Origin: an uncultured Nitrospirales bacterium
GTDB taxonomy: Bacteria > UBA10199 > JADGCS01
Length of the DNA: 64,000 bases
Direction: 5' to 3'
Assembly (NCBI GenBank): GCA_964526915.1
Contig: CAZGMS010000072.1
Location: 7,341 to 71,340 of the forward strand
The translations under genes were made by a program, and so were the position numbers. Below, one piece after another: positions 3,329-59,187 of this stretch; position 1 is the first letter of the stretch, and the number at the start of each line of letters is the position of its first letter. Under the pieces are notes generated by a model. The model saw nothing but the letters and a program-made list of their open reading frames with translations. It was not told the origin of the DNA and searched no databases.

Positions 3329-3418
3329 GAGTGCCTCACAGAGCGGGCGGTATAATCATAAGCGAAAAGGGATGCAATCAAAAGATAGATTGGAGCATCA
3401 AATAGTCAGATGCGGTGG

Positions 3419-4546: not shown

Positions 4547-4591
4547 AATGATCAGTGCCTCAATTTTAGGATATTAGTCAAACATCAGCCA

Positions 4592-17215: not shown

Positions 17216-17226
17216 GTATTATTATT

Positions 17227-18183: not shown

Positions 18184-18198
18184 TGGAGGTGCCCTTTA

Positions 18199-19089: not shown

Positions 19090-19129
19090 TTTTTCATCCC
19101 CCTAATGGTTCATCCATCTGTTTTCTTGT

Positions 19130-20005: not shown

Positions 20006-20020
20006 CCTTTTTAGTTCTGT

Positions 20021-20551: not shown

Positions 20552-20593
20552 GGCATATTAGGCATCTTGAAAATACAGATTAAAGCACGGCTA

Positions 20594-21824: not shown

Positions 21825-22901
21825 TCACAATACAGTGCCATATTTCATGGCTCGATACCTCACACAATAAAAATATAGCGAATAACTGATAAGGATAATG
21901 GTGAAAATAATAATGACTATACTGTTACTAAGTGTTTTAATATAATAAAAAGCCAGTGCGGCCAATATGATAGTCTGCAAATAATAAAAAAGTGTTATCG
22001 ACTTCACCTCCCAACCCATCATGTGAAGCAACTGATACGGATGCATCCTGTGCGCCTGATATATTTTATGCCCCTGACACAGCCGCCAAATGACGGTAAA
22101 CAATGTTTCCATTATAAAATTAGCAAATAAAATGGGCGTGATCAAAAAAGGTGTGTGTGATTGATCATAGTTAGCCGCCAAGATGGCAATGGCACCAAAA
22201 GAAAATCCCAAAAAAGTACTGCCCACATCGCCCATAAATATGGTGCCTTTGGGAAAATTGAATATCAAAAAACCTAAAGCAGCGGCCGCCAACATATAAC
22301 TCACATGAAACACAAAACCACTACCCATCATGAACGTAATCAGTGTAAAACCCAGCCCCACCAGCACAGCCGTACCTGCAGCCAAACCATTGATCCCATC
22401 CATAAAGTTAAAGGCGTTTGTGATGCCCACAATCCATAAAATGGTCAGCGGATAACCCCATATTCCCAACTCTACATTTCCGAAATAAGGAATGGTGAGC
22501 TTTTTGATTGTGAGGCCAAAGGCCATCAGTATGATCACGCCAACAAACTGACTGAGGAACTTATAGGCAAAGGCCTTATTAGTGATGTCATCATACAAAC
22601 TGACAACAGCAATCATGAGAGATGATAAAAACAAACCCCAGTATGGCTTGGCGCCCACAAAATTATCATTCTGCAAAACATAGTAGAGCAAAATGCCTAT
22701 GCAATACGATACGACAATGGCAATTCCTCCACTACGAGGTATAGCACCCGTGTGAGAACTTCTTGCACACGCTGTATCCATGATCCTGACATATTTACGG
22801 CAAAGATATGTAAAGCATGCTGACAAAAATACCAGCATGATAAAAAAAGCGGTATTCGAAACATAAAACATGCTATGATTTTTCAAAAGTTCTGTCAGCA
22901 T
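21825..22901 (-). CDS. Polyprenyl-phosphate HexNAc-1-phosphate transferase (MraY/WecA/WbpL family); initiating enzyme no. 2
   Basis: 358 aa and polytopic. Motifs YDDITNK, NAFNFMDGINGLAAG and IFMGDVGSTFLGF. Confidence 0.9.
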   Translation of the reverse strand: MLTELLKNHSMFYVSNTAFFIMLVFLSACFTYLCRKYVRIMDTACARSSHTGAIPRSGGIAIVVSYCIGILLYYVLQNDNFVGAKPYWGLFLSSLMIAVVSLYDDITNKAFAYKFLSQFVGVIILMAFGLTIKKLTIPYFGNVELGIWGYPLTILWIVGITNAFNFMDGINGLAAGTAVLVGLGFTLITFMMGSGFVFHVSYMLAAAALGFLIFNFPKGTIFMGDVGSTFLGFSFGAIAILAANYDQSHTPFLITPILFANFIMETLFTVIWRLCQGHKIYQAHRMHPYQLLHMMGWEVKSITLFYYLQTIILAALAFYYIKTLSNSIVIIIFTIILISYSLYFYCVRYRAMKYGTVL

Positions 22902-23854
22902 ATCGCCTTATTGTTATACCATGTCACTGTTTCTTTTAGTGCGTCGTTCATAGAGCATGGTGGTTTCCATCCCAACAATCGAGTGGACTTTGATCGGTCA
23001 ATTTCGAGCGAACAACACAATCGTTGATAAAGCCCTTTTTTCCCAAGCAAAAAAGCTCCTCGCCTCACAATCGCCTTATCTATGTTGAAAATACGCGCAG
23101 GTCTGCCCATATTATGAGCAATCATCTTAATCAAGTCGGGAACAGTCACAGATTCCGCATCAGAAGCCAGAAATACATTCCCACCTGCTTTTGCATTTGT
23201 CAGGCAATGCACTATCAAATCGCATAGATTTCCCACACTAATCATGTGGCGCACATTCTGAAAACGCCCCAGAGGAAGCGGAACACCCTTTTGAGCAAGC
23301 CACAACAGCCTGAGAAAATTACCCTTCACACCAGGGCCATAAACCAAAGGTGTACGGATGATCACAACCCCCATTTTCGTTTCGGCCTGAATGCGCAATA
23401 GTGCCTGCTCTGCTTTGAACTTGGACTTGGCATAGGCACCTTCTGGCTTAGGATCATCTTCTTCTGTAAATGGCTTTTCAAAGGTTTCTTCACCATTTAC
23501 TTTTATTGTGCTTAAAAAAACAAACTTTTTTACCCCATGTCCTGCCGCCGCCTGCGCAAATTTTTCTGTAACGACTGCATTAACCAAGTCATATTCATCT
23601 TTATTGTCAGTTTTTTCAATTTCATGAACTTTGGCCGCTAAATGAACAATCACTTCACAGTCTTTTAAATACCGATCCCAGTCATCAACGGCCTGGGCAT
23701 CGGACACTTGGATATAATCCACCACATCGGACAAAGTCGTTTGCCTTTTCGGAAGCCTTCCCATCCCTCTCACCAAAAATCCATTATCAACCAGATGGCG
23801 AGCCAAATGTTGTCCCACAAAACCAGAAATACCTGTCACCAATACCTTTTTCAT
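22895..23854 (-). CDS. NAD-dependent nucleotide-sugar epimerase/dehydratase (SDR, WbjF/WbpK-like)
   Basis: MKKVLVTGISGFVGQHL Rossmann start and YAKSKFKAEQ (YxxxK). The longest ORF (to 23989) adds 45 low-complexity residues. The Met at 23854 gives an ATGA overlap (tcat at 23851-23854). Confidence 0.8.
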   Translation of the reverse strand: MKKVLVTGISGFVGQHLARHLVDNGFLVRGMGRLPKRQTTLSDVVDYIQVSDAQAVDDWDRYLKDCEVIVHLAAKVHEIEKTDNKDEYDLVNAVVTEKFAQAAAGHGVKKFVFLSTIKVNGEETFEKPFTEEDDPKPEGAYAKSKFKAEQALLRIQAETKMGVVIIRTPLVYGPGVKGNFLRLLWLAQKGVPLPLGRFQNVRHMISVGNLCDLIVHCLTNAKAGGNVFLASDAESVTVPDLIKMIAHNMGRPARIFNIDKAIVRRGAFLLGKKGLYQRLCCSLEIDRSKSTRLLGWKPPCSMNDALKETVTWYNNKAIC

Positions 23855-25104
23855 TGCTCTACTACTGCCTGAATTCCTTTTTGACCCAGAACCAGCGGTT
23901 CCAACACAGCGACCATTTTTTTTGCCTGTTCTTCTCGTGTGTGTGTCTTGGCCGCCATCAGACTTTGTTTTGCATATTGAAGTCGCCATTCGTTATTTTC
24001 AAATAAACGCACTACAGCGCAACTCAGAGCAACAGCATCTTCAGGCAAAACACAAACACCAACTTTTTCTGAATCTATAATATGACTGAGCTCTCCCTTT
24101 GGCCCTGCAAATAAAATAGGCAACCCCATACCCATGGCTTCAAAAACCTTCGAAGGGATTACTGTTTCAAAAACAGGAGTGTTTTTTAGGCTCACCAACG
24201 CCACATCACATAAGCTCCAGAATCTTGGCATTTCAGATTTGGGTTGGGCCGCAAGAAACGTCACATTGGTCAGTCCCATCTGTGCTGTTTTTTCCTGCAG
24301 TCCTTTCTTTGTAGCACCATCTCCAACGAACAAAAAATGAATAGACGGTTTATCTTCCATCTTTTTGGCTGTCTCTAAAATTGTTTCCAAAGCATGTGCC
24401 AAACCATGTGTACCCAGATAACCTACAATAAATTTTTGGTTTAGTGAATATTGTTTGAGAAGTTCTTTATCTTTTCCTCTGGGAGAATAGCGACTCAAAT
24501 CCACACCATTGATCACCACTGAAATCTTGTTTTCGGGAATTCTCCTTTTAACCAAATCGTCTTTAAAGGCATTTGTCAACGCCACCACAGCCGCCGCTTT
24601 GTGATACAAAAACAACTCAACTTTTTCGATCATCCGTAAAACAAGTCCTTGTTTCATAGCACCCACCGCGGCGATAGAAGCAGGCCACAAATCACCTAAC
24701 TCAAAGACAAAAGGCACTCTTTTGCAGAATGCCGCCGCCCACCCACCCACTGCTGCAAAAAACTGTGGGGATGTAGCAATGATCAAATCTGGTTTTTTTT
24801 GAAATAAAGCCACCCCAAAAGCCATAAACATATACGATATAAAATCCAGAGTTCTTAAAAGAAAACCTTCGTTTGCAGAAATATATGTTTTCACCCGAAT
24901 GACTCTAATACCTGACATCATTTCTGTCTGATACCATTTGTTTTTATAACCAGCATATACTTTTCCCTGCGGAAAATTGGGGGCACACGAAATAACAGTC
25001 ACTTGGTGACCCCAACGCACCCAATAGCAGGCCCGCTCAAAAACACGCGAGGCAGAAGCGTTGACTTCAGGAGGAAAATTGTCTGAAAAGAAAAGAATGT
25101 TCAT
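23851..25104 (-). CDS. Glycosyltransferase family 4, WbuB-like
   Basis: MNILFFSDNFPPEVNASASRVFE...GHQVTVISCAPNFPQGKVY is typical of the WbuB/WbjE type. C-terminal IPSKVFEAMGMGLPILFAG. The Met at 25104 gives an ATGA overlap. Confidence 0.8.
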   Translation of the reverse strand: MNILFFSDNFPPEVNASASRVFERACYWVRWGHQVTVISCAPNFPQGKVYAGYKNKWYQTEMMSGIRVIRVKTYISANEGFLLRTLDFISYMFMAFGVALFQKKPDLIIATSPQFFAAVGGWAAAFCKRVPFVFELGDLWPASIAAVGAMKQGLVLRMIEKVELFLYHKAAAVVALTNAFKDDLVKRRIPENKISVVINGVDLSRYSPRGKDKELLKQYSLNQKFIVGYLGTHGLAHALETILETAKKMEDKPSIHFLFVGDGATKKGLQEKTAQMGLTNVTFLAAQPKSEMPRFWSLCDVALVSLKNTPVFETVIPSKVFEAMGMGLPILFAGPKGELSHIIDSEKVGVCVLPEDAVALSCAVVRLFENNEWRLQYAKQSLMAAKTHTREEQAKKMVAVLEPLVLGQKGIQAVVEQ

Positions 25105-26225
25105 ACGCCACAAGGCACGCTCACAAAGAGGTGTTTTAGCACATCAACAATGCGTTCTCCAGACTTGCCATCCCACAAATCAGGAATACGGCCTTTTTTC
25201 CACTGCCCAGCGAGTATCTGATCAACGGCATGGATAATACGAGTGGGATCACTCCCCACAATCTCATTGGTCCCCACAGTCACCGTCACAGGGCGCTCAG
25301 TATTCCCTCTCATGGTGATACAGGGAATCCCCAAAACGGTAGTTTCTTCCTGAACACCACCCGAATCAGTCAATACAAATTTGGCGGCCGCGGTGAGCCT
25401 GATCATCTCATGATACGATACAGGCTCCAACTGGTGAATATTTTTCAATTGCTCCCATTGCGGAGCCAAACCAAATTGGTCAATCATCTTGATCGTTCTG
25501 GGATGAACAGGAAAAACAATTTTTATCCGATTCTGAATGTGAGCAAAAGCCTTTAGCAAGCCTTTTAGTACCATGGCATGATCAACATTAGATGGTCTGT
25601 GAAGTGTCATGAGGCAATACTGGCCTTTTTGAATATGGAGTCGTTCCAAAATATCAGATGTTTGGGCCTGAGGAAAATTTCTGAGCAAGGTGTCAATCAT
25701 GACATTGCCCACAAAATATATTTTGTGAGAAGGAACTCCTTCACGTAGCAAATTGTCTTGAGCTTCCTGTTCCGTTACAAAAAAATAATCACTAATGGCA
25801 TCAGTCACCTTGCGATTGATTTCCTCAGGCATTTCATCATCGTAACTCCTGAGCCCCGCTTCGACATGAGCCACTGGAACAGAGAGCTTCTTGGCTGTAA
25901 TTGCACAGGCCATCGTGGAATTAACATCGCCAACAACAAGCACCAAAGCAGGCTTCTGTTTGAGAAGCATCTCTTCAAAACGAACCATGATGTTTGCTGT
26001 CTGTACAGCGTGCGTGCCGGAGCCCACTTCCAGATGAACATCCGGCTGGGGCAGACCCAACTCCTCAAAGAATCGCCCAGACATTCTCTGATCATAGTGC
26101 TGGCCGGTGTGAACCAACAGTGGAGTCATGCCTGTGACGCAAGCTTTCATGGAGGTCACAAGAGAAGCCACTTTCATAAAATTGGGGCGCGCCCCACAAA
26201 CGATCGCAATTTTTTTTGTTATCAC
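25101..26225 (-). CDS. wecB: UDP-N-acetylglucosamine 2-epimerase (non-hydrolysing)
   Basis: 374 aa. IAIVCGARPNFMKVASL and VLTDSGGVQEETTVLGIPCITMRGNTERP. Apparent GTG start in a GTGA overlap with the upstream stop. Confidence 0.85.
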   Translation of the reverse strand: MITKKIAIVCGARPNFMKVASLVTSMKACVTGMTPLLVHTGQHYDQRMSGRFFEELGLPQPDVHLEVGSGTHAVQTANIMVRFEEMLLKQKPALVLVVGDVNSTMACAITAKKLSVPVAHVEAGLRSYDDEMPEEINRKVTDAISDYFFVTEQEAQDNLLREGVPSHKIYFVGNVMIDTLLRNFPQAQTSDILERLHIQKGQYCLMTLHRPSNVDHAMVLKGLLKAFAHIQNRIKIVFPVHPRTIKMIDQFGLAPQWEQLKNIHQLEPVSYHEMIRLTAAAKFVLTDSGGVQEETTVLGIPCITMRGNTERPVTVTVGTNEIVGSDPTRIIHAVDQILAGQWKKGRIPDLWDGKSGERIVDVLKHLFVSVPCGV

Positions 26226-27595
26226 ACAACCACACCTTTCAAAATAATGTCGCCTGGCTTCCTAAACACTTTATCATATAACCAGACCAAAGCTGCCGCA
26301 TCCAAGATTAAAATAGCAAAATACGCCGCAAACATATAACGTTGCTCGTAATGCGTGGGTAAATGAATGGCTATTTTATACAAATACAATAACAACAGAA
26401 TTGATATTTGTCGAAACTCCTTCCGATAAAAAATCAAAGCCAACATGACCAATAAAAACATAACAATAACAATCGCTGTAAAACAAACATGAATAAAAGC
26501 CTTAGCCGTAAATGATTCTGATGTTGCAGCATCTAACAACATCATTGATACTAATCTTTTAAGCAAAACTTTTGCATAATATTCCGGGTGCGCCTTAACG
26601 ACTTGCATGGCATCGTCCATCAAGAGATCCGATGACTCCTTGACCCACCGTGGGCCATCATATCCCAGCTCATGTAATCTCTTTTGACCGGCATCATCAG
26701 AGTTTTCAAAACCATAGGAATTTGGATACTCACCCAACCCTTCCCAAAAGCCTTCCCCTGTATTGGACCAATAATCATAATGCCCTGTGCTTTTTTGATA
26801 CAAAATTGAAAACGGAGCACCAAAGAAAACCACAACAATAAGAAACATCGATACTGAATTAGCAAAACTAACAAACAATGTTTTCTTTTGAAGCAATAAA
26901 TAGACAAAATACACACCTGGCAAAAATATGATGAATGGTCTAAACCAACAAAAAAATGCAATGGATACGCCTGACAAAACAACCCACACAAGAGATCTTT
27001 CACTATGAAATATTTTTAATGAGAAATAAGTTGCTGTAATCATTCCCCACAATTCAAAAACATCACGACTAGCCACAGAGGACAGTAAAATAAATGGTAC
27101 AAATAATATATACAAGACTGAAGAAAGGTATGCTATGGATGAACGCATAAAAATAAGTTCAGCGATCAAAAACACAAGCACAGCCATAAATGAATCAAAG
27201 ATAATTTGAATAATCTGCAGTGGCAGAAAACTTTTTGGAAATATTTTCCAGAAGATCCCAAGAACAATTGCATAACCTGGAACATCTGTTAGAAGCGGGA
27301 AGGTATAATCACTGTTGGTTTTATTGAGAATTGCCTCCCTTTGAAAATAATCCACATTGATTCTCTTTTCCTTCATATTCAAAAGATTTTTGTAGGCCTG
27401 AGAATCTGGATCTTTAGGGCTCTTCCAATCTAATTCTCCGCCTGACTTAAAACCAATTCCATCGGCAATATTGCTTGCAATAGTATATTGTTCGCCCATA
27501 CGACCAGAATCGAAATAGAGATCATGAAAGACAAATAAACCAACAACCCTTACCGCAAGAGCTATGAGAAACAATATAAGTAATGTATTTTTCAT
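26222..27595 (-). CDS. GT-C fold membrane glycosyltransferase (ArnT/PMT_2-like)
   Basis: Polytopic protein of about 457 aa. N-terminus MKNTLLILFLIALAVRVVGLFVF, then a first loop YFDSGRMGEQYTIASNIADG resembling the GT-C Asp/Glu loop. The Met at 27595 avoids overlap with the upstream gene. Confidence 0.55.
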   Translation of the reverse strand: MKNTLLILFLIALAVRVVGLFVFHDLYFDSGRMGEQYTIASNIADGIGFKSGGELDWKSPKDPDSQAYKNLLNMKEKRINVDYFQREAILNKTNSDYTFPLLTDVPGYAIVLGIFWKIFPKSFLPLQIIQIIFDSFMAVLVFLIAELIFMRSSIAYLSSVLYILFVPFILLSSVASRDVFELWGMITATYFSLKIFHSERSLVWVVLSGVSIAFFCWFRPFIIFLPGVYFVYLLLQKKTLFVSFANSVSMFLIVVVFFGAPFSILYQKSTGHYDYWSNTGEGFWEGLGEYPNSYGFENSDDAGQKRLHELGYDGPRWVKESSDLLMDDAMQVVKAHPEYYAKVLLKRLVSMMLLDAATSESFTAKAFIHVCFTAIVIVMFLLVMLALIFYRKEFRQISILLLLYLYKIAIHLPTHYEQRYMFAAYFAILILDAAALVWLYDKVFRKPGDIILKGVVV

Positions 27596-27599
27596 CGTT

Positions 27600-28727
27600 C
27601 TATACAAAGAAACCGGAAACTCCATTGATCACCTGATCTATAAGGGGATCCAAACCTGCCCATAAAGGAAGTCTTAAAATGCGTTCACTTGTATGTTCTG
27701 TGTTCATCATTGTTCCAAAACACCTGGCATATTTAGACCCATAAGGAGAGCTGTGTAATGGCACATAATGTGATACGGCATTGATACCCATTTCTTTGAG
27801 ATGTGACATGATATCTGATCTTGTTCTAGAATCTTCGAGCAACAAATAATACATATGAGCGTTGTGTACACATCTGGCAGAAATCATTGGCCGTCTCAAA
27901 ACACCTTTCTGTTCTAAAACCAAAAAGGCGTCATGATATCGTTGCCAAAGACACATTCGATTATCAGTTATTTTCTTTGCCTCATCAAGCTGTGCATAAA
28001 GAAATGCCGCCACCATTTCACCTGGTAAAAAGGAAGACCCCAAATCCTGCCATGAATATTTATCAACCTCACCTCTTAAGAACTGCTTTCGATTCGTTCC
28101 CTTCTGCCAAATAATTTCCGCTCTCCGCACAAAACGTTCATCATTCATTAACAATGCACCGCCCTCACCGGAAGAAATATTTTTTGTGTCGTGAAAACTG
28201 AGACATCCCATCTGTCCAATCGTTCCAAGATATTGGTTGTTATATTGAGACATGATAGCCTGTGCGGCATCTTCGATAACCAACAGATGATGTCTTTTCG
28301 CTATGGATGTGATGGTTTCCATTTCACAACCAACGCCCGCATAGTGGACGGGAACGATGGCTTTTGTTTTTGGGGTGATCGCATCCTCTATGATCTTTTC
28401 ATCGATGTTCAAGGTGTCTGACCTGATATCAACAAAGACAGGGACTCCACCACGCAGAACAAATGCATTGGCTGTAGAAACAAATGTGAATGAGGGCATG
28501 ATGATCTCATCACCTTGCTGAATATCGGCTAATAAAGCGGCCATTTCCAACGCGCCCGTGCATGAATGCGTCAGCAGAACCTTTTGACATCCAAGTTTTT
28601 TTTCCAACCATTCATGACATTTTTTTGTGAAGAGACCATCACCAGACAAACGCCGATCCTCTAACACCTTTTGAATATACTTGATTTCATGACCTGTAAT
28701 GAATGGCTTATTGAATGGTATTTTCAT
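27600..28727 (-). CDS. wecE: dTDP-4-keto-6-deoxyhexose 4-aminotransferase (WecE/RffA-type)
   Basis: Long collinear matches to E. coli WecE as I recall it: MKIPFNKPF, SCTGALEMAALLADIQQGDEIIMPSFTFVSTANAFVLRGGVPVFVDIR, SFHDTKNISSGEGGALL. Confidence 0.85.
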   Translation of the reverse strand: MKIPFNKPFITGHEIKYIQKVLEDRRLSGDGLFTKKCHEWLEKKLGCQKVLLTHSCTGALEMAALLADIQQGDEIIMPSFTFVSTANAFVLRGGVPVFVDIRSDTLNIDEKIIEDAITPKTKAIVPVHYAGVGCEMETITSIAKRHHLLVIEDAAQAIMSQYNNQYLGTIGQMGCLSFHDTKNISSGEGGALLMNDERFVRRAEIIWQKGTNRKQFLRGEVDKYSWQDLGSSFLPGEMVAAFLYAQLDEAKKITDNRMCLWQRYHDAFLVLEQKGVLRRPMISARCVHNAHMYYLLLEDSRTRSDIMSHLKEMGINAVSHYVPLHSSPYGSKYARCFGTMMNTEHTSERILRLPLWAGLDPLIDQVINGVSGFFV

Positions 28728-29505
28728 CATTGATTTTTTCGGCCACACAGACCAGGGAACCTCCAAAGGGGAATGACAAACCGTAAGCGATCATCAACAT
28801 TTCAACATCACAAACCCGTTCGAAGATCCAATTGATCCATCGTGCAATTTTGAATTCAGAAAGAATGTCCTGAGTTGAATTCGATTTTAAACTCTTTTTC
28901 AACCAGATTCTAGAAACAAACATGAACGGCAACAAGAGGGCCATGAAAGACGAAACCCAAACCATTCTGAACCCGCTTTTTTTTAGTTTGATGGTAAGTT
29001 CTTCACAAGTGTACCTTCGTTTATGGCAAGCAACCTCATCCTGAGAACTCCACAACCAAGCATGTTGCGGCACAGTCAGAATAAGCCCCCCACCCTTTTT
29101 CAGACCCTGATGAAATTGATTCAAGACACACTCATCTTCCAGAACATGTTCCAGAACATCAAACGCCCCAATAACATCATATTCTTCCCTATACGGCATT
29201 TGCCGCGCGTCCATTTGGAACAGTGACGCATTTTTGAGTCTCTTCTTTGCAAAGCTCAAACCCTCAGAAAACAAATCGCTCCCTGAAATCTGAGTCTCTG
29301 GAAATGACTTTTCGATGGCCGACAAAACAAAGCCAGTTCCACAACCCACCTCAAGAAAAGATTTCATCTGTGGGAAAAATTTTTTAAGAGCCCACAAAAT
29401 CAGGCGGTTTCTTGAACAGAACCAGAAGTTCCGAGATTCTAGTTTCTGGATTTGCCAAAAATAGTCACTATCAAAACCTTGTGAAAGATTAACTGCGCCT
29501 ATCAT
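28708..29505 (-). CDS. Class I SAM-dependent methyltransferase
   Basis: 265 aa. Motif I FLEVGCGTGFVLSAI and post-II IGAFDVLEHV. Confidence 0.8.
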   Translation of the reverse strand: MIGAVNLSQGFDSDYFWQIQKLESRNFWFCSRNRLILWALKKFFPQMKSFLEVGCGTGFVLSAIEKSFPETQISGSDLFSEGLSFAKKRLKNASLFQMDARQMPYREEYDVIGAFDVLEHVLEDECVLNQFHQGLKKGGGLILTVPQHAWLWSSQDEVACHKRRYTCEELTIKLKKSGFRMVWVSSFMALLLPFMFVSRIWLKKSLKSNSTQDILSEFKIARWINWIFERVCDVEMLMIAYGLSFPFGGSLVCVAEKINDENTIQ

Positions 29506-29523
29506 AAAAAATGTCGAAACGAA

Positions 29524-30321
29524 TTATTGCTTTTCGAAAACAAACAATTTCTGAGTACCATAATCACCCACAGAGGGCATTTGTGCAAACCAGCGATTGA
29601 TTTCCATATTGGGATTGGCAACAAGTTGCTCCAGTTCTGCGCATTTCGCCAATATTGGTTTGATCACTCTAGTACCAACAAAATAAGTGCTGGAAAAATT
29701 TTCTATTTTTTTCAATTTCAAACACGCGGGCAAATGCTTCAGTAGCTCGTTTTCATCAAGATACGTGTTAAAAGCAGGCATTGAAATGGCCTCTAACCCC
29801 CATTCAGCACGGAAACAGTTCAATTTATTCCACCCCTGCTTTGTGGCTTCAGATAGCAAAAGCAAACCTCCGGGCATCAACACCCTTGCGCATTCCTCAA
29901 GTGCTTTCACCTGTTTATTAAGTTCAAGCAGATTAATTAATACCCTAACAACAAAAACCTGATCATATGAGTTATCACATTCTTTTAATTGCGTAATGTC
30001 ACCAACATTAAAAGAAAGTCTTTCTTGTAAACCAGGGTTAAGGGTAGCAACTCTTTTGTTGGCTTCTTCAATCATTTTTGGAATATAATCAATGCCCTTT
30101 ATTACTACCTTTTTTTTCATGGCCACAGAAACTGCTGTGTATCCATTTGCACAGCCTGCATCCAATATCTTGGCACCATCCTTTGTATATTTTAGAAGTT
30201 CCCTGATCTCAATTTCAATAGCCTCCCGATCAGACCATGACACCGATGGCTCTTGGCCATACATATGGGCCTGTTGATTCCAATAATCATAAACCTGTTC
30301 TGCATTAAACTTTTCTTTCAT
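29524..30321 (-). CDS. Class I SAM-dependent methyltransferase
   Basis: 265 aa. Motif I ILDAGCANGYTAVSVA followed by VFVVRVLINL. Confidence 0.75.
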   Translation of the reverse strand: MKEKFNAEQVYDYWNQQAHMYGQEPSVSWSDREAIEIEIRELLKYTKDGAKILDAGCANGYTAVSVAMKKKVVIKGIDYIPKMIEEANKRVATLNPGLQERLSFNVGDITQLKECDNSYDQVFVVRVLINLLELNKQVKALEECARVLMPGGLLLLSEATKQGWNKLNCFRAEWGLEAISMPAFNTYLDENELLKHLPACLKLKKIENFSSTYFVGTRVIKPILAKCAELEQLVANPNMEINRWFAQMPSVGDYGTQKLFVFEKQ

Positions 30322-31256
30322 GAATCACCTCTTTGAATTATTCTCATATCTCCCCTGACAACATAAGATGGTTTGCCCATTGTCTTAAAATGAACACGGG
30401 CCAAATACTCACCTATGATACCTAAGGAAAATAATTGCGCCCCAGAAAAAATGGCGATAATTGAAGCTAAGAATGTAAAACCATGCACAGAACTCCCTCG
30501 AATCAAATAGCTAATCAAAATATAACTCAAAATACAGATGCCAAATATTGTAAAAACAAATCCTATCAGACTCGCAATTTGCAACGGAACAACACTATAA
30601 CCAGTTGCCATATTTAACGAGTACGTTACCAACTTCAAAAAAGTGTATTGTGATTTCCCAAATGCCCTTTTTGAATGTTGCACATTCACACTAGAAAATC
30701 TGTTCGTCCCCCACGTTAACAATACATCAATTGACACAAATGGACTGTAATAATTGATAAATGCTTCTAGAATTTCCCTTCTGAAGGCACGAAATGCACT
30801 CACTTTTCTCGCCACATCGTATCCCATCACACTCTGTAAAGTTATGCGAGTAATCTGAGAAGCCAATTTTCTCCATATGTTCTGACTGACTTTTTGGGAC
30901 GTCCCATACACCACATCATAATTTTTGTTCAACGCATGCAATAAACACGGTATCTCTTCAGGTGGGTGTTGCAAATCATCATCCATGGTCACTATAATTT
31001 CATATTGGGCCTGTCTGATACCACAAAGTACAGCGTTGTGCTGACCATAATTTCTTCTCAATTGGATTGCCTTGACCTTGGGATCAAACAGAGCAATCTC
31101 AGAAATGATTTTCCACGAATCATCCGTTCCACAATCTTCAACCAAAATGATTTCATAGTTATCGGCCATCGAAGCCAATTGACAACTCAAACGTTCATAT
31201 AGTGCCCGAATACTCCCCGCACAATTGTATGCCGGTATCACAACTGAAATGCTCAT
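30318..31256 (-). CDS. GT2 polyprenyl-phosphate glycosyltransferase (ArnC/GtrB/DPM1-like)
   Basis: ISVVIPAYNCAGSI, ILVEDCGTDDS and IVTMDDDLQHPPEEI, plus two C-terminal TM helices (VVPLQIASLIGFVFTIFGICIL; FLASIIAIFSGAQLFSLGIIGEYL). Start taken at Met 31256. Confidence 0.8.
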   Translation of the reverse strand: MSISVVIPAYNCAGSIRALYERLSCQLASMADNYEIILVEDCGTDDSWKIISEIALFDPKVKAIQLRRNYGQHNAVLCGIRQAQYEIIVTMDDDLQHPPEEIPCLLHALNKNYDVVYGTSQKVSQNIWRKLASQITRITLQSVMGYDVARKVSAFRAFRREILEAFINYYSPFVSIDVLLTWGTNRFSSVNVQHSKRAFGKSQYTFLKLVTYSLNMATGYSVVPLQIASLIGFVFTIFGICILSYILISYLIRGSSVHGFTFLASIIAIFSGAQLFSLGIIGEYLARVHFKTMGKPSYVVRGDMRIIQRGDS

Positions 31257-31266
31257 GTGATGATCT

Positions 31267-32340
31267 TTACCCTCTATTGTACTGCTTGTCATAAAACTCC
31301 AAATATTTTAGATTTCGAACATCATCAGTCCATTTTTTGTGTTCGTGGTACCAACGAACTAATGCGGAAATTTCATTCTCAAAGAGTCGCCTTGGCTTCC
31401 AAAACAACTCTTTTCGAAGCTTTGAGCTGTCCAGAGCATACCGTCTATCATGCCCTGGACGATCAGCGACGTACCGCATGAGTTTTTGTGATGTGCCCAG
31501 AGCTCTTCCCATCAATCGGTCCACGACATCACAAATCGTTGTCACGATATGAATATTACTCCTCTCTGTCTCTCCGGAAATCGCATATGTTTCACCTATC
31601 TTTCCTTGTTCTAAAATGGCCTGCAAAGCCTCACAGTGATCGAGGACATGAATCCAATCACGTACGTAAAGTCCGTCACCATAAACAGGCAGTTCTTTGT
31701 CTTCAAAAGCATTTAAGATCATCAATGGAATCAGTTTCTCTGGAAATTGCCAAGGGCCATAATTGTTCGAACAATTACTGATTATCACTGGCAAGCCATA
31801 GGTCCTGTGCCAAGCCCGCGCCAGATGGTCAGAAGCAGCCTTTGATGCAGAATATGGGCTATTGGGTTTGTAAGGTGAATTTTCGTTAAACGGTGGTGAT
31901 GTAAGATCCAGAGCACCAAAGACTTCATCTGTCGAAACATGCAAAAACAACTTGTCGTCAGAATCTACCCAGAGCTTTTGTGCAGATTCGAGCAACGTGA
32001 ACGTACCCTCAATATTTGTTTTTATGAACGGAGTCGCACCAAGAATGGAGCGATCAACGTGACTTTCGGCCGCAAAATGAACGATCGTGTCAATTTCGTA
32101 TTTAGATAAGATATCGCGAATGTTTGCACCATCACAAATATCGATTTTTTCAAAAAAGTACCTTTTGTCAGCAAATTCTGCATGGACATCTTTCAAATTT
32201 TCAAGATTCCCTGCGTACGTCAGATTGTCAACATTGACAACAAGACCCCGAAAATCCGCCTTCTTGAGAAGAGAACGAATAAAATTGGAGCCGATGAACC
32301 CCGCGCCTCCAGTCACCATGATGTTTTTTAGTTTTCTCAT
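31267..32340 (-). CDS. rmlB: dTDP-glucose 4,6-dehydratase
   Basis: 357 aa. [23 protein letters not shown] and [11 protein letters not shown]. Confidence 0.95.
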
Positions 32341-33206
32341 GTATTTTCCAAAACCCTCAATAGATATTCACCGTAACCAGATTTTAACAATGGCTGCGCA
32401 AGTTGCCTGAGTTGCTTGGCAGAAATGAATCCCATTCTGTAGGCGATTTCTTCTATGCAGGCAATTTTCAGACCCTGTCGATCTTCAATAGTTTTTATAA
32501 ACATCGCTGCATCGGCCAAAGAAGCATGAGTGCCCGTATCTAACCAGGCAAAACCTCGCCCCAACATGCGCACATTCAGTTTGCCTTGGGCCAAATAGGC
32601 AGTATTGACGTCTGTGATTTCCAGTTCCCCCCGAGGAGAAGGCTTGATTGTTTTTGCAATTTTAGCGGCCACATTGTCATAAAAATACAATCCCACAACG
32701 GCATAATTTGATTTGGGTTGCTCCGGCTTTTCCTGCAAAGAAATGGCTTTCATATTTTTGTCAAATTCAACTACTCCATAGTTCTGAGGATTGTTGACAT
32801 AATAGCCAAATATTGTTGCGCCGTTCACGTTCACTGAAACATTTTTCAGCAATCCCTGAAGCCCATCGCTGTAAAATATGTTATCTCCCAAAATCAGGCA
32901 AACAGAATCACCTGCAATAAAATTTTCACCCAAAATAAGAGCCTCCGCCAAACCACGCGGCTGTTCTTGAACTTTGTAGTTAAAAGAAAGTCCCAATTTA
33001 CTGCCGTCACCAAAAAGCATCTTAAATCGGGGAAGATCTTCTGGTGTGCTGATGATGAGAATTTCACGAATGCCAGCAAGCATAAGTGTGGAAAGAGGGT
33101 AATAGATGAGCGGTTTGTCGTACACCGGTAACAGCTGTTTACACGCTACTTGCGTTATTGGATACAACCTGGTTCCAGAGCCACCTGCTAAGATAATGCC
33201 TTTCAT
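32337..33206 (-). CDS. rmlA: Glucose-1-phosphate thymidylyltransferase
   Basis: 289 aa. [18 protein letters not shown] and LGDNIFY. ATGA overlaps on both sides. Confidence 0.95.
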
Positions 33207-34816
33207 AAATTTTCTCCTCTATATGAAACCTCATACTCAAGCACATCACGAAACTGATATTGTAAAACTTGATTCTTAATTTTTTTTCCAAATTCAGGAC
33301 AATACCAGTTCTGAAGGAACTTCGGAGCACACAGAGAACGGATACAAACCCTCACGCCCTTATAAAAAATATTCACCTCGCTGTCAGCAATAGTAATCTG
33401 AGCCTCGGGCACAGCATGTAGGTATGAGGCGCAACAATATTGGTTAGCTGAAATAACAGCATCTCTAATGACAAGCGCATTTTCATTCATAAGGATCCTT
33501 CTTGTTACCAATGGTTTTCCCAAAAGGTAACAGTACCCCGTATGCGCCGCCTCAATCATAACCGAAGAATTTTCTTCTACAATAGAAGTTTCCAAAGGAT
33601 AACCTCTTCGCCCCACCCTGTGGGCCGCCCATATCTCTGCTTGTTCCTGGTCATCAACAGTCACCGTGTTATGAGCAGAAGTTGATCGGCAATACTGCCG
33701 CATGGCTGATGGTAAATATTCATAGTTGCCACTGTCAACGATCACAGGGACACCATCAATCCACAAACAAAAAGAAAGCATATCACAATGGGCATGACCA
33801 GGCTGATGATCAGGACCAATTTTTCCCACATCTTGAATCAGCGTAAACCTACCTTTTTTGACGACAACATAACCCGAATCCTTTAGCCACGTCACTTCAC
33901 CATCTTCCTCCGGGCAATGCCACCCCAATAGATCCTGTCCATATTCAAACAGGTCATCCGCCTGAGGGGCACCCTCATACCCTGCATCCCCAAACAGAGC
34001 GAATTTTCCATCAACACTCATGTGCCACAACCAATTCAAACCCTTATGTGCCACATCAATCAACTTGCCATAAACGTTTTGCGAAAGGGGACGGTTGCGG
34101 GTCAAATTGAGGATATCAAGAATGCGTTCCAGCAAAATGGCATGATACATTGGCGACAATTCATAATGCCCGCCATCAGCCAAAAACTGTGCATCGATTT
34201 CTTTGACCAACTGATCATAAATAATTTGTTGTTGTGATGTTTTGCAACAGACGTGGCTCACCAAATACAAAGCGAAAAGATTTTCCAATAAGTGATTGCC
34301 CAAAAGATGGTACTCTCGTCGTGCATAAAGAACGGATGCCTGCTGTGCCAGCGACAACCGTATCTTGGCAGAGTCTGAGAGTCGCCCTTGAGCCAACAAC
34401 TTGATCCATGTGACCATACGGAGTGAGATGGGATAAGCCTCCCAGCCATTACCCTTAAATGGAGAGTTGTCATCAATCCATTTGTTTACCCAATCGTCAA
34501 CGGGACAATCGTCCTCCAGTAACCAATCCTGATAGTGCAAACGATAACTCCAGAGCTTGTCATTTTTTACAAAATCCCAATCACGACCCACCAAAGTATT
34601 TTGTTTGTTGTTGAAAAGAAATGCTCCACTGCCAAGATAATGTTTGCGATTAGCCACTGGGAAAGACAACTCCGGTTTTAGAGAACACGATGAAATAATA
34701 AATATCTTCTTTGGACATAATGGCATCACAGCATAATATAGCCTGTAAAATATTTGAGATGCTTTCAAATGTTTCAGTGTTCTAAAATATCTGCTCATGT
34801 AACCAAAACAATTCAT
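33203..34816 (-). CDS. Heparinase II/III-family protein (biosynthetic-locus type)
   Basis: 537 aa. [14 protein letters not shown] and [27 protein letters not shown] resemble heparinase II/III-like C-terminal motifs. Confidence 0.65.
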
Positions 34817-36966
34817 TGTGTTATTAGTAAAGTTTCTCTGGTTTTGATGGCTTCACTTACCAAAAAAGTCGCCTCTGTTGTGACAAAGATTTCATCAAGA
34901 GGGATAGGGTGTTGGTGCTTGTTGATCACAGCAGAGAAAAAAGCCAAAAACTCCTCCTGAAACCCCTTGCTTTGTTTGCCTTTCAGTTTTTTTCGGCCCA
35001 ATTTCCCAAAACATTCTGTACTCACAAAATCCTTCATTAAACACACAGACTCATCCACAAATATCTCGCCCTGTTCTTTGGGATGGTCACGAGATCCAAA
35101 CGATGTGTAAATAAAATTAGCCAGAGAACCATCTGAATACTCAATATTGATCGAAACATTGTCGGCGGCCTGTCGCTCTGCATTATCACCACCAACAGAG
35201 CAAGCTTGCACTGTCCGCGGCATAGCAGACAAAATATAACTGACAAAATCAATAAAATGACAAACTTCACCAATGATACGCCCTCCCCCCTTAATGGGAT
35301 CATGAACCCAGGAGTCATAAGGAATGTGCCCCGCATTGATGCGATAATTTACCACCGCGGGCGATGTTTTTTTCGCCAAATAGTCTCTCAAAAGCTTGGC
35401 ATGTGGCGAAAAACGCCTGTTAAACCCTACAGTCAATATTCCAGAGTGAATTTGAACAGCTTGTTTGATGGCTTCCAATTCGTCCCTGTTCAACGCAAGG
35501 GGTTTTTCTACAAAAACATTTTTTCCCGCCTCTAGAGCCTTTACAACCAATCCGGCATGAGAATCATGACGGGTCGCAATCACAACGGTATTGATTCGTG
35601 GGTCAGCAAAAAGTTCGGCAGAATCCGTCGTGACGTACTCAAATCCTGTTTTTTTTGCGACTGCCGTGATATCAATTCCTGTTGTGGCACAAAGACATCT
35701 GAGTGAAATGTGATTTTGTTTTTGCAAAGCAGGCAACAACACAGCTTTTGCAAAATTGCCCATGCCAATCATACCCACGACACAATCGGTTACCTGATGG
35801 TTCTGTCCACAAATCACTTTGCGTTCTGGGACTCTCGTCGTTCCGTCAGATTTGCCATAACCAATCACAATACCCAAATACTCACTTTTTTCCCTGCCCA
35901 ACAACAAATCGTAGGCCTTGAGTCCTTCGGCAATATCATACTCATGTGTGATCATCTTGGAAGGAGTCACATGGCCATCGGCAATCAAATCCAAAAAGAA
36001 CTCAATGTTTCGTTGTTCAGTCCAACGCACATAGCCATAAGGATAATCATGCCCCTTTTCTTCATAATTGGTATCATAGCGTCCGGGCCCGTAAGACATG
36101 CTCAGTTTGAAATCCAGTTCCTTTTTGTAAAACACATCCCTGGGTATGTTCATTCCAACCATGCCCGTCACCACCACTTTGCCCTTATGACGCGCAATCT
36201 GGCCTGCCAGCTCAACAGGCTCATTGGAATTCGTTGCCGCTGTGATGAGAACGCCATCAACACCATTTCCCTTTGAAAAAGCATCGCATGTGGCCACAAG
36301 ATTGTCCTTAACCACAGAATCAGCCCCAAGCTCTTGCGCCAATGAACAGCGTCGTGCATCAGGGTCAAAACCCACCACTTTGGCACCACTGGCTTTCAAA
36401 ATTTGTACAGCAAAAAGCCCAAGCAAACCCAATCCCATCACACAAACAGTTTCACCTACCCTCACATCACATTGCCTGACACCCTGCAGGGCAATCGCAC
36501 CCACCGTTGCACAGGACGCATCCCTAAAAGAAACCTTGTCGGGAATTTTGACCAGCAGATTTTTTGGTACATAATTGAACTCCGCATGGTTCGCATAACC
36601 TGCCCCTGCGCAGGCCACACGATCACCATTCACCAACCCCTTGACCCCTTGTCCAACCTCCACCACCACACCAGCACACGAATAGCCCAAAGGAATAGGC
36701 TGATCGAGTTTGGCCTGTACCTTTTCCCAGGTTTCAAACAATCCCTCAGTCTTAATTTTTTGAATCACTTTTTTGACCTGATCAGGCATGGCACAGGCCT
36801 TGCCCAATAAATTTTTCTGGGCAAACGACACCAACATTTTTTCGGTACCTGATGAAATAAACGAATGATGTGTTTCAACCACAACGCCTTCCGGTTTGAG
36901 TATGGGTACAGGCACGTCCGCCAACCAGATTTCTCCTGTTTTGAATGACTGAATAATTTGTTTCAT
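34813..36966 (-). CDS. Bi-domain oxidoreductase: N-terminal MDR zinc-type alcohol dehydrogenase fused to C-terminal Gfo/Idh/MocA
   Basis: N-terminal half has GYSCAGVVVEVG and VMGLGLLGLFAVQIL. C-terminal half has VGMIGMGNFAKAVLLPAL, VVIATRHDSHAGL and VFVEKPLAL. Start taken at Met 36966 (MKQIIQSF). Confidence 0.8.
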   Translation of the reverse strand: MKQIIQSFKTGEIWLADVPVPILKPEGVVVETHHSFISSGTEKMLVSFAQKNLLGKACAMPDQVKKVIQKIKTEGLFETWEKVQAKLDQPIPLGYSCAGVVVEVGQGVKGLVNGDRVACAGAGYANHAEFNYVPKNLLVKIPDKVSFRDASCATVGAIALQGVRQCDVRVGETVCVMGLGLLGLFAVQILKASGAKVVGFDPDARRCSLAQELGADSVVKDNLVATCDAFSKGNGVDGVLITAATNSNEPVELAGQIARHKGKVVVTGMVGMNIPRDVFYKKELDFKLSMSYGPGRYDTNYEEKGHDYPYGYVRWTEQRNIEFFLDLIADGHVTPSKMITHEYDIAEGLKAYDLLLGREKSEYLGIVIGYGKSDGTTRVPERKVICGQNHQVTDCVVGMIGMGNFAKAVLLPALQKQNHISLRCLCATTGIDITAVAKKTGFEYVTTDSAELFADPRINTVVIATRHDSHAGLVVKALEAGKNVFVEKPLALNRDELEAIKQAVQIHSGILTVGFNRRFSPHAKLLRDYLAKKTSPAVVNYRINAGHIPYDSWVHDPIKGGGRIIGEVCHFIDFVSYILSAMPRTVQACSVGGDNAERQAADNVSINIEYSDGSLANFIYTSFGSRDHPKEQGEIFVDESVCLMKDFVSTECFGKLGRKKLKGKQSKGFQEEFLAFFSAVINKHQHPIPLDEIFVTTEATFLVSEAIKTRETLLITQ

Positions 36967-36968
36967 AG

Positions 36969-55393: not shown

Positions 55394-55394
55394 T

Positions 55395-56645: not shown

Positions 56646-56667
56646 GGTAGCTTCCTCCTATGATGAT

Positions 56668-57489: not shown

Positions 57490-57518
57490 AGTTTACCTCT
57501 CCACTCTGATAGGGTTAA

Positions 57519-59147: not shown

Positions 59148-59187
59148 CTTTTAACCACAATATTTATCAGTTATCCTGACAAGGAAA

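What the first reader, a model, noticed from the sequence alone, without database searches (positions are those of the whole stretch)
26222..33206. Arn/Gtr-like three-part periplasmic modification system apparently fed by a dTDP-4-amino-4,6-dideoxyhexose and two methyltransferases
Seen in sequence: contiguous RmlA, RmlB, a GT2 with DDDLQHPP and two C-terminal TM helices (ArnC/GtrB architecture), two class I MTases, a WecE-type 4-aminotransferase and a GT-C membrane enzyme. Established knowledge: ArnC/ArnT and GtrB/GtrC pairs load a sugar onto undecaprenyl phosphate in the cytoplasm and transfer it in the periplasm. RmlA/RmlB/WecE produce dTDP-4-amino-4,6-dideoxygalactose. There is no WecD-like acetyltransferase in this module. 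Inference: a free or N-methylated 4-amino-4,6-dideoxyhexose may be carried on Und-P and added post-polymerisation to lipid A, core or O-antigen. That would be a cationic decoration analogous to L-Ara4N but with a different sugar. No small GtrA/ArnEF-like flippase ORF (>=60 aa) is visible in the module.
Basis: partly seen in the sequence, partly recalled or inferred. Interest (0 to 1): 0.6.

Follow-up and report, generated by a model that had tools for sequence, protein, structure and literature searches.

The report
Lipid-carried amino-sugar decoration module
Seven back-to-back genes look like a relative of the aminoarabinose (polymyxin-resistance) and Gtr sugar-decoration pathways that instead loads a methylated 4-amino-4,6-dideoxy-sugar onto the membrane lipid carrier, and its core enzyme pair recurs in many uncultured bacteria with no description found in the literature searched.

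Summary
Seven overlapping minus-strand genes encode RmlA, RmlB, an ArnC-like polyprenyl-phosphate GT2 (DDDLQHPP, two C-terminal TM helices), two class I methyltransferases, a true WecE orthologue and a GT-C-fold membrane enzyme.

The main new evidence is comparative. The GT2 belongs to a tight clade (57-64% identity). In 13 of 13 unrelated loci where downstream DNA is present, its orthologue sits next to a WecE orthologue. The slot between them holds a WecD-like GNAT, an ArnA-like formyltransferase, or MT_a. RmlA/RmlB and large membrane or GT-C proteins often flank them.

This argues that the GT2 makes undecaprenyl-phosphate-(N-capped Fuc4N), a close stereochemical analogue of Und-P-Ara4FN. 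The GT-C would then transfer it outside the cytoplasm.

MT_a occurs only where no acyltransferase is present, so it is the likeliest N-methylase. MT_b co-occurs with any cap, so it is probably an O-methylase. Neither resembles TylM1/DesVI specifically.

Acceptor, flippase, stereochemistry and the dTDP donor are inferred, not shown. I found no description of such a system in the held literature. I rate it a new variant of a known kind.

The parts
32337..33206 (-). RmlA, glucose-1-phosphate thymidylyltransferase (289 aa)
   Evidence: TIGR01207 equivalog 475.9 bits, above the 360.65 cutoff; PF00483 6.6e-72. Orthologues at 51-58% identity flank the GT2/WecE pair in L018 and L019.
31267..32340 (-). 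RmlB, dTDP-glucose 4,6-dehydratase (357 aa)
   Evidence: TIGR01181 equivalog 449.3 bits, above the 365.1 cutoff. Orthologues at 50-51% identity in L018 and L019.
30318..31292 (-). Polyprenyl-phosphate glycosyltransferase (GT2, ArnC/GtrB architecture), 324 aa. Proposed Und-P:dTDP-(N-capped Fuc4N) transferase.
   Evidence: PF00535 1.4e-32. Aligns full length to solved ArnC (E = 1.8e-51), better than to GtrB (4.7e-37) or DPMS (7.8e-22). DDDLQHPP motif. Two C-terminal TM helices. The clade signature DDD is found in 120/120 orthologues, against DAD in ArnC, GtrB and DPMS (bioRxiv 10.1101/2025.01.29.634835). Linked to WecE in 13/13 loci.
29524..30321 (-). MT_a, class I SAM methyltransferase (265 aa). 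Best candidate for N-methylation of the 4-amino group (inferred).
   Evidence: Methyltransf_25/31/11. Orthologues at 49-54% identity occur only in L011/L012 and L022, the modules that lack a GNAT or formyltransferase, and in the same slot just after the GT2. PDB profile hits cover the SAM core only (RebM, phosphoethanolamine N-MT); TylM1/DesVI are absent.
28708..29505 (-). MT_b, class I SAM methyltransferase (265 aa) with a hydrophobic C-terminal part. Probably O-methylation or another methylation independent of the N-cap (inferred).
   Evidence: Methyltransf_23/11/12. Orthologues at 34-50% identity in L011 and L022 (with MT_a), L017 (with formyltransferase), and L018, L023 and L031 (with GNAT). 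Best PDB match is 3cc8, of unknown function; TylM1/DesVI appear only at E about 1e-8, beyond rank 50. Hydrophobic segments at 179-202 and 236-255.
27600..28766 (-). WecE, dTDP-4-keto-6-deoxy-D-glucose 4-aminotransferase giving dTDP-Fuc4N. The likely true start is M13, near 28730.
   Evidence: NF008687 594.6 bits (cutoff 375) and TIGR02379 575.2 bits (cutoff 434.85); ArnB model only 202.9 bits against a 631 cutoff. E = 1.7e-136 to E. coli WecE 4piw, against 4.6e-45 to ArnB. Gene calls of 376 and 382 aa on Logan contigs.
26222..27625 (-). GT-C-fold membrane glycosyltransferase (467 aa, about 10 TM helices), member of a rare family. Proposed extracytoplasmic transferase using the Und-P-sugar.

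Best explanation
The seven genes form a donor-synthesis-plus-transfer module of the Arn/Gtr type, built around a different sugar. The proposed steps are:

1. RmlA and RmlB make dTDP-4-keto-6-deoxy-D-glucose.
2. WecE transaminates it to dTDP-4-amino-4,6-dideoxy-D-galactose (Fuc4N). Fuc4N is the C5-methyl homologue of L-Ara4N.
3. The 4-amino group is capped. Related modules use a WecD-like acetyltransferase or an ArnA-like formyltransferase. Here the cap is most likely methylation by MT_a. MT_b adds a further methyl, probably on a hydroxyl.
4. The ArnC-like GT2 transfers the modified sugar from the nucleotide to undecaprenyl phosphate at the cytoplasmic face.
5. The lipid-linked sugar is flipped by an unidentified protein.
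6. The GT-C enzyme transfers it to an acceptor outside the cytoplasm. The acceptor is most likely the polysaccharide made by the surrounding Wzx/Wzy-type locus.

Shown here: the identities of RmlA, RmlB and WecE; the Pren-P-GT architecture of the GT2; the GT-C fold; and the conserved GT2-WecE-(N-capping enzyme) linkage.

Inferred: dTDP-sugar as the GT2 donor, the methylation sites, the order of steps, the flipping step and the acceptor.
For: - Enzyme identities exceed curated cutoffs.
- The GT2 is nearest to ArnC among solved structures, over its full length including the TM helices.
- The GT2 belongs to a clade of at least 120 clusters at 57-64% identity.
- Thirteen clade members with readable downstream DNA were chosen by GT2 similarity or contig length only. 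All 13 have a WecE orthologue (50-58% identity) within one to five genes: L011, L013, L015, L017, L018, L019; L020-L023; L031, L032. GC content of these loci ranges from 39 to 63%.
- The genes between GT2 and WecE are GNATs whose best NCBIfam hit is WecD (E = 1e-13 to 3e-26), an ArnA-N-terminal-like formyltransferase (E = 1.8e-54), or MT_a.
- RmlA/RmlB are adjacent in the window, L018 and L019.
- PMT_2-type GT-C proteins or large polytopic proteins adjoin most modules.
- GT2 paralogues at 27-33% identity (L003, L006, L013b, L019b, L027, L028) have no WecE neighbour; the two whose motif could be read (L003, L019b) carry DAD rather than the clade's invariant DDD.
- The ArnC residue E19, reported to contact the UDP portion, is S/A/G/C and never acidic in the 120 orthologues. 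This is compatible with a 2'-deoxy nucleotide but is not proof.
Against: - No biochemical data exist for any member of the clade.
- No Pren-P GT2 is known to me to use a dTDP-sugar, so the donor nucleotide rests on gene linkage alone.
- Neither methyltransferase is specifically related to the sugar N,N-dimethyltransferases TylM1/DesVI. A structure prediction of MT_a failed.
- L011 carries LbH acetyltransferase genes near its MT_a module, which weakens the mutual-exclusion argument.
- The sample is small (about 11 independent loci) and its members are phylogenetically related.
- The window's GT-C family is not the one found beside most other clade members. It also pairs with non-clade GT2s (L003, L006), so its donor specificity is not established.
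- No flippase is identified.
- Several GT4 enzymes in the locus could in principle consume dTDP-Fuc4N derivatives.
Confidence: 0.62

Rival explanations
1. Two unrelated functions are interleaved. The GT2/GT-C pair is an ordinary Gtr-like module adding glucose or GlcNAc from a UDP-sugar. RmlA/RmlB/WecE and the methyltransferases make a dTDP-sugar that a cytoplasmic Leloir glycosyltransferase puts into the main chain, for example the GT4 at 23851-25113 or 36969-38132.
For: All characterised Pren-P GT2s use UDP- or GDP-sugars (own knowledge; ArnC, GtrB and DPMS in bioRxiv 10.1101/2025.01.29.634835). The locus holds at least five GT4 and one further GT2. The window's GT-C family also pairs with non-clade GT2s.
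Against: The 13/13 GT2-WecE adjacency across loci of very different composition and content would be unexplained. It includes minimal contexts such as GT-C-GT2-GNAT-WecE (L015) and GT2-GNAT-WecE (L021). No WecF-type (GT56) transferase was detected among the roughly 55 window ORFs of at least 150 aa scanned with Pfam.
Confidence: 0.12
2. The pathway is the same, but the amine stays free. Both methyltransferases are O-methyltransferases (for example 2-O and 3-O). The GT2 then carries an uncapped primary-amine sugar, giving a cationic decoration like Ara4N without a deformylation step.
For: MT_a's best structural relatives include the sugar O-methyltransferases RebM (3bus) and a D-glucose O-MT (6uv6). 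Neither methyltransferase is TylM1/DesVI-like. There is no acyltransferase or deacylase in the module.
Against: Twelve of the thirteen related modules carry an enzyme able to cap the amine in or next to the GT2-WecE slot, and MT_a appears exactly where GNAT or formyltransferase is missing. In L013 the only methyltransferase lies after WecE. In the Arn and ECA pathways the transamination product is N-acylated before further use (established knowledge).
Confidence: 0.2
3. The module is a lipid A or core modification system in the strict ArnT sense. It would add the amino sugar to lipid A phosphates and confer resistance to cationic peptides, rather than decorating the polysaccharide.
Against: The genes are translationally coupled inside a polysaccharide operon, between a heparinase-like gene and WecB/GT4/WecA-like genes. 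The GT-C matches no ArnT model in NCBIfam. AglB, PMT and ALG enzymes score as well as ArnT. Whether the organism has lipid A at all is unknown.
Confidence: 0.12

Closest known systems
Arn (PmrHFIJKLM) L-Ara4N lipid A modification pathway: ArnB, ArnA, ArnC, ArnD, ArnE/F, ArnT
   Same: The logic is the same: a 4-keto sugar nucleotide is transaminated, the amine is capped, a two-TM GT2 transfers the sugar to Und-P, and a GT-C transfers it outside the cytoplasm. The GT2 is closest to ArnC (E = 1.8e-51). The L017 variant even has an ArnA-like formyltransferase. Fuc4N is the C5-methyl homologue of L-Ara4N.
   Different: The sugar nucleotide comes from dTDP-glucose (RmlA/RmlB), not UDP-GlcA. The aminotransferase is WecE, not ArnB. 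There is no decarboxylase, no ArnD-type deformylase and no ArnE/F in the module. The GT-C is not an ArnT orthologue. The acceptor is probably a polysaccharide.
Gtr three-component O-antigen glucosylation (GtrA/GtrB/GtrC) and related systems (Klebsiella Gml; pentofuranose GT136 system, PMC11127046)
   Same: Und-P-monosaccharide donor made by a GtrB-type GT2, a serotype- or acceptor-specific GT-C, location in or near an O-antigen locus, and a variable GT-C partner around a conserved donor synthase.
   Different: The donor is not UDP-Glc or UDP-Gal. There is no GtrA. The module includes the sugar's whole biosynthetic pathway and its tailoring enzymes.
Enterobacterial common antigen Fuc4NAc branch (RffH/RffG, WecE, WecD, WecF)
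   Same: RmlA, RmlB and a true WecE orthologue (above equivalog cutoffs). WecB and a WecA-like transferase lie directly downstream. Sister modules carry WecD-like GNATs.
   Different: There is no WecD and no WecF (GT56). The sugar appears to be routed through Und-P and a GT-C instead of a cytoplasmic Leloir transfer, and methyltransferases replace the acetyltransferase.
Amino-sugar lipid A / cell-wall modifications via Und-P-HexNAc plus deacetylase (Francisella FlmF2/NaxD/FlmK, Bordetella LgmABC, mycobacterial PpgS/Rv3779). Recalled from own knowledge.
   Same: An ArnC-like GT2 plus a GT-C deliver an amino sugar extracytoplasmically. The amine is masked during lipid loading.
   Different: Those systems use common UDP-HexNAc donors and unmask the amine with a deacetylase. 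No deacetylase is present in this module. The only PF01522-like gene, at 38129-39124, is weak (24.9 bits) and five genes away.
TylM1/DesVI sugar N,N-dimethyltransferases
   Same: Class I SAM methyltransferases acting on dTDP-amino-dideoxyhexoses, which is the chemistry proposed for MT_a.
   Different: No specific sequence relationship. MT_b matches them only at E about 1e-8, behind more than 50 other methyltransferases. MT_a does not match them at E <= 1e-3.

Membership tests
Polyprenyl-phosphate glycosyltransferases (GT2; ArnC/GtrB/DPMS type) | N-terminal GT-A domain with a D-x-D-L-Q metal/nucleotide motif | tested here: met
   DDDLQH at residues 104-109 aligns with DADLQN of ArnC.
Polyprenyl-phosphate glycosyltransferases (GT2; ArnC/GtrB/DPMS type) | C-terminal pair of TM helices, with alignment to solved members over the full length | tested here: met
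   Hydrophobic helices at 231-267 and 272-294. Residues 14-316 align to ArnC 9-314.
ArnC (Und-P Ara4FN transferase) orthologue | Score above the NCBIfam equivalog cutoff NF007986 | tested here: not met
   207.3 bits against a cutoff of 529. About 37% identity only.
Arn pathway | ArnB-type UDP-4-keto-pentose aminotransferase | tested here: not met
   ArnB model 202.9 bits against a cutoff of 631. The WecE models are passed instead.
Arn pathway | ArnA (UDP-GlcA decarboxylase/formyltransferase), ArnD deformylase and ArnE/F flippase present | tested here: not met
   None found in the module or window. No small multi-TM ORF. Only a weak PF01522 hit at 38129-39124.
Gtr three-component system | GtrA-family small flippase | tested here: not met
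   No ORF of 60-200 aa with at least 3 TM helices outside larger genes.
Gtr three-component system | UDP-glucose as the donor of the GT2 | not testable with these tools
   Gene linkage points to a dTDP-derived sugar instead.
GT-C fold glycosyltransferases | Polytopic membrane protein with the GT-C fold | tested here: met
GT-C fold glycosyltransferases | Conserved acidic residue in the first extracytoplasmic loop | tested here: inconclusive
   D35 and D39 (DSGRM) follow TM1 but vary among 12 homologues. D114 is invariant among 12, and D144 is nearly invariant among 34.
ECA Fuc4NAc pathway | RmlA, RmlB and WecE above equivalog cutoffs | tested here: met
   475.9 > 360.65; 449.3 > 365.1; 594.6 > 375.
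ECA Fuc4NAc pathway | WecD N-acetyltransferase and WecF (GT56) transferase | tested here: not met
   No WecD or GT56 hit in any scanned window ORF. The module GNATs of sister loci have no BLAST match in the window.
TylM1/DesVI sugar N,N-dimethyltransferases | Specific sequence or structural similarity beyond the SAM-binding core | tested here: not met
   MT_b: 3bxo/3pfg at E about 2e-8, beyond rank 50. MT_a: absent at E <= 1e-3. The MT_a model is unusable, pLDDT 41.

The most novel reading that the evidence does not exclude
The DDDLQ clade of ArnC-like enzymes is an undescribed, widespread family of polyprenyl-phosphate glycosyltransferases that use dTDP-activated 4-amino-4,6-dideoxyhexoses. 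It would create an Und-P-Fuc4N(R) donor pool for extracytoplasmic glycosylation, with an interchangeable N-capping slot (acetyl, formyl or methyl). The window would carry the methyl version, which installs an N-methylated or N,N-dimethylated, O-methylated and therefore permanently cationic 6-deoxy amino sugar on a surface glycan without any deacylation step.
Probability: 0.3. Interest if true: 0.8.

Novelty: new variant of a known kind. Interest (0 to 1): 0.66.

Why it matters
Extracytoplasmic glycosylation from Und-P-monosaccharides is known for Glc, Gal, GlcNAc, GalN, GlcN, Ara4N, GalA and pentofuranoses. All of these donors come from UDP- or GDP-sugars or from PRPP.

A conserved, widely distributed cassette that sends a dTDP-derived 6-deoxy-4-amino-hexose through Und-P would have several consequences:
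- It would add a new donor class.
- It would give a function to a large set of genes currently auto-annotated as 'ArnC'. These could be misread as polymyxin-resistance genes in metagenomes.
- It would give glycoengineers a way to add Fuc4NAc, Fuc4NFo or methylamino sugars after polymerisation.
- The swappable N-cap slot is a natural experiment on how ArnC-type enzymes tolerate the substituent on the amine.

Tried and rejected
- I first guessed a Leptospira rfb locus with a second rmlABCD set at 60606-63986. This was rejected: those genes are a GT2, a GNAT, NeuB and an RmlD-like SDR below cutoff.
- Organism identification failed. The exact proteins occur only on a 73.6-kb NCBI contig and on Logan runs SRR446575 and SRR446576, with no names attached. 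The GT-C peptide scan found nothing. A degenerate motif scan found six distant GT-C homologues in Caldisericota, Kapaibacterium and Chitinivibrionales MAGs.
- The word-index protein search is nearly blind to the GT-C: 2-4 hits.
- The viral-contig scan for the GT2 clade gave no relatives, so there is no sign of phage carriage.
Single-sequence AF2 of MT_a gave pLDDT 41. The afdb50 fold library was unavailable.
- GT2 residues do not separate MT_a-type from GNAT-type modules. The GT2s of L017 (formyl) and L018 (GNAT) are 98% identical.
- Large membrane proteins next to the sister modules mostly have no Pfam family and fall into several unrelated BLAST groups. One of them, in L022, is a Na+/H+ exchanger.
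- Promoter and terminator scans were at chance level.
- Seven literature searches found no description of an Und-P-Fuc4N-type system.

Full report
OBSERVATION. The window is one long array of minus-strand genes for glycan synthesis.

- RmlA (32337-33206) and RmlB (31267-32340) pass the NCBIfam equivalog cutoffs.
- The aminotransferase (27600-28766) is a real WecE orthologue. NF008687 scores 594.6 bits against a cutoff of 375. It matches the E. coli WecE structure at E = 1.7e-136, against 4.6e-45 for ArnB. Its true start is probably M13, near 28730.
- The GT2 (30318-31292) carries MDDDLQHPP and two C-terminal hydrophobic helices. It aligns end to end with solved ArnC (E = 1.8e-51), better than with GtrB (4.7e-37) or DPMS (7.8e-22). 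It is far below the ArnC equivalog cutoff, 207 against 529 bits.
- The two 265-aa methyltransferases are generic class I enzymes, unrelated to each other beyond the SAM fold.
- No WecD-like gene lies in the module.
- No small multi-TM ORF lies anywhere in the window outside a larger gene.

THE DECISIVE EVIDENCE IS COMPARATIVE. A search with the GT2 returned a very tight family. The best 120 clusters are 57-64% identical to it and come from many sources, including Omnitrophota and Chloroflexota MAGs.

I also fetched loci found by a GT2-peptide scan of metagenomes. In all 13 loci where DNA downstream of the GT2 is present, a WecE orthologue lies within one to five genes. These orthologues are 50-58% identical to the window's WecE, and the one tested passes the WecE equivalog cutoff. 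The loci range from 39 to 63% GC and otherwise have different gene contents.

The slot between GT2 and WecE is occupied as follows:
- A GNAT in L015, L018, L019, L020, L021, L023, L031 and L032, and in the truncated L025. The best NCBIfam match of the four GNATs tested is WecD, the dTDP-Fuc4N acetyltransferase (E = 1e-13 to 3e-26, below cutoff but full length).
- A formyltransferase related to the ArnA N-terminal domain (E = 1.8e-54) in L017.
- An MT_a orthologue in the window, L011/L012 and L022.
- Nothing in L013.

RmlA/RmlB orthologues adjoin the pair in the window, L018 and L019.

GT2 paralogues at 27-33% identity (L003, L006, L013b, L019b, L027, L028) have no WecE neighbour. The two whose motif could be read carry DAD, whereas DDD is invariant in the clade: 120/120 and 14/14. 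DAD is also the motif in ArnC, GtrB and DPMS (bioRxiv 10.1101/2025.01.29.634835).

The simplest reading is that this clade transfers the WecE product, once its amine has been capped, to polyprenyl phosphate.

MECHANISM. Shown: the RmlA/RmlB/WecE identities, which by established ECA biochemistry give dTDP-4-amino-4,6-dideoxy-D-galactose; the Pren-P-GT architecture; and the GT-C fold.

Inferred:
(i) The GT2 uses the dTDP-sugar.
(ii) The amine is capped before or around lipid loading, as in the Arn and ECA pathways.
(iii) In this window the cap is methyl.
(iv) The lipid-linked sugar is flipped.
(v) The GT-C transfers it to an extracytoplasmic acceptor.

Fuc4N has the same ring stereochemistry as L-Ara4N plus a C5 methyl group. 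That fits the GT2 being closest to ArnC.

One suggestive detail concerns ArnC E19, reported to hydrogen-bond the UDP portion in simulations. In the 120 orthologues this position is S/A/G/C and never acidic. That is compatible with a 2'-deoxynucleotide. However, some non-clade paralogues also have Ser there, so I give it little weight.

THE METHYLTRANSFERASES. A profile of MT_b and six homologues hits 3cc8 (function unknown) best. TylM1/DesVI appear only at E about 2e-8, behind more than 50 other methyltransferases. A profile of MT_a hits RebM, SpnF-like, phosphoethanolamine N-MT and glucose O-MT over the SAM core only, and does not hit TylM1/DesVI at all. Membership in that family is therefore not supported.

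Gene distribution is more informative:
- MT_a orthologues (49-54% identity) occur only in the three module types that lack a GNAT or formyltransferase. They sit in the same position, directly after the GT2.
- MT_b orthologues (34-50% identity) occur with MT_a (window, L011, L022), with the formyltransferase (L017), and with GNATs (L018, L023, L031).

I therefore assign MT_a as the likely N-methyltransferase, the functional replacement of acylation. I assign MT_b as a methylase independent of the N-substituent, most simply an O-methyltransferase. MT_b's hydrophobic C-terminal segments would allow action at the membrane.

This is an inference from about 11 independent loci. It is weakened by LbH acetyltransferase genes near L011's module.

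The GT2 itself does not co-vary with the cap. The L017 (formyl) and L018 (GNAT) enzymes are 98% identical, and no residue separates the groups. This suggests tolerance of the N-substituent.

GT-C, ACCEPTOR AND FLIPPASE. The window's GT-C belongs to a rare family. An exhaustive search found 496 representatives with E <= 1e-3 among 1.84 billion, and 13 with E <= 1e-30. Members occur as follows:
- Next to non-clade Pren-P GT2s and methyltransferases in L003 (MT-GT2-GT-C-MT, plus a second paralogue) and in a Kapaibacterium MAG (GT2-SDR-GT-C).
- As orphans in Chitinivibrionales MAGs.
- Once fused to a C-terminal methyltransferase.

Other clade modules use different partners. These are PMT_2/TMEM260-like GT-Cs in L015, L019, L024, L026, L031, L032 and L011, and unclassified polytopic proteins of about 500-800 aa elsewhere. 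This is the pattern expected of a conserved donor cassette combined with acceptor-specific transferases.

The acceptor cannot be read from sequence. The module is translationally coupled to a heparinase II/III-like gene upstream and to WecB, a WcaI-like GT4, an SDR and a WecA-like transferase downstream. I therefore favour the locus's own polysaccharide over lipid A.

A dedicated flippase is absent here and in 13 of 14 related loci. Only L018 has an EamA-like 129-aa protein in the module. Flippases of three-component systems are known to vary among GtrA, SMR and MATE types (PMC11127046). The window has two Wzx/MOP proteins, and one of them might serve, but that is speculation.

COMPARISON WITH KNOWN SYSTEMS. 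The module works like Arn and Gtr, but it is a member of neither. ArnA, ArnB, ArnD, ArnE/F and GtrA are absent or replaced, and the GT2 fails the ArnC cutoff. It shares RmlA/RmlB/WecE with the ECA pathway but lacks WecD and WecF. Seven literature searches found no description of an Und-P-Fuc4N-type donor or of a dTDP-using Pren-P GT. The library is incomplete, so this is absence of evidence only.

VERDICT. The methylation site, donor nucleotide, acceptor and charge remain to be tested. It is a new variant of a known kind, and its GT2/WecE core pair recurred in every related locus examined. Interest is 0.66.

Noticed in passing
window 13513-21736 (-): A phosphonopyruvate decarboxylase (14703-15866; TIGR03297 419 bits, cutoff 312) sits inside the glycan locus. 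Its neighbours are a PrpD/MmgE-like protein, an aldo-keto reductase, Fe-S hydro-lyase alpha/beta subunits, a PF15617 'C-C bond lyase' TIM barrel and an ATP-grasp enzyme. No PEP mutase was detected. This may be a phosphonate or organic-acid tailoring route for the glycan.
   Followed up: partly
window 53205-60594 (-): Two B12-binding radical SAM enzymes, two radical SAM/SPASM proteins and a DegT-type aminotransferase lie in a row. This suggests unusual C-methylation or other radical chemistry on a sugar.
   Followed up: no
window 61508-63986 (-): A GNAT, a NeuB-family synthase and an RmlD-like reductase (153.6 bits, below the 224 cutoff) look like part of a nonulosonic-acid pathway that continues beyond the window edge.
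   Followed up: partly
window 1442-7042 and 21825-22901; 11869-13338 and 49115-50425 (-): There are two initiating phosphoglycosyl transferases: a PglC-like one with PglD/PglE/PglF-like neighbours, and a WecA-like one. There are also two Wzx-type flippases and one Wzz. The locus may therefore encode two glycans, or one Wzx may have another role.
   Followed up: no
window 33203-37020 (-): A heparinase II/III-like protein overlaps the rmlA start. A 735-aa fusion of a zinc-type alcohol dehydrogenase with a GFO/IDH/MocA oxidoreductase lies directly upstream of the module.
   Followed up: no
window 38129-39124 (-): A weak polysaccharide-deacetylase (PF01522) match, 24.9 bits against a cutoff of 23.1, lies five genes upstream of the module, next to a FemAB/GNAT-like gene and a DegT-like gene. 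An ArnD/NaxD-like role cannot be excluded.
   Followed up: partly
P0008 (702 aa; homologue of window 26222-27625): One member of the rare GT-C family is fused to a C-terminal class I methyltransferase domain. The methyltransferase part is not MT_a- or MT_b-like; its closest window relative is 45645-46406 at 27% identity.
   Followed up: partly
L017 8001-9915 and L018 8001-9835: Two contigs from one JGI sample carry 98% identical GT2s. One is followed by an ArnA-like formyltransferase and the other by a WecD-like GNAT, so the N-capping enzyme seems to be swapped around a constant GT2.
   Followed up: yes
L003 2850-12086: A 36% GC metagenomic contig has two to three paralogues of the window's GT-C family around a non-clade two-TM GT2 and two MT_b-like methyltransferases. 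No aminotransferase is present. It is a related but distinct methyl-sugar decoration cluster.
   Followed up: partly
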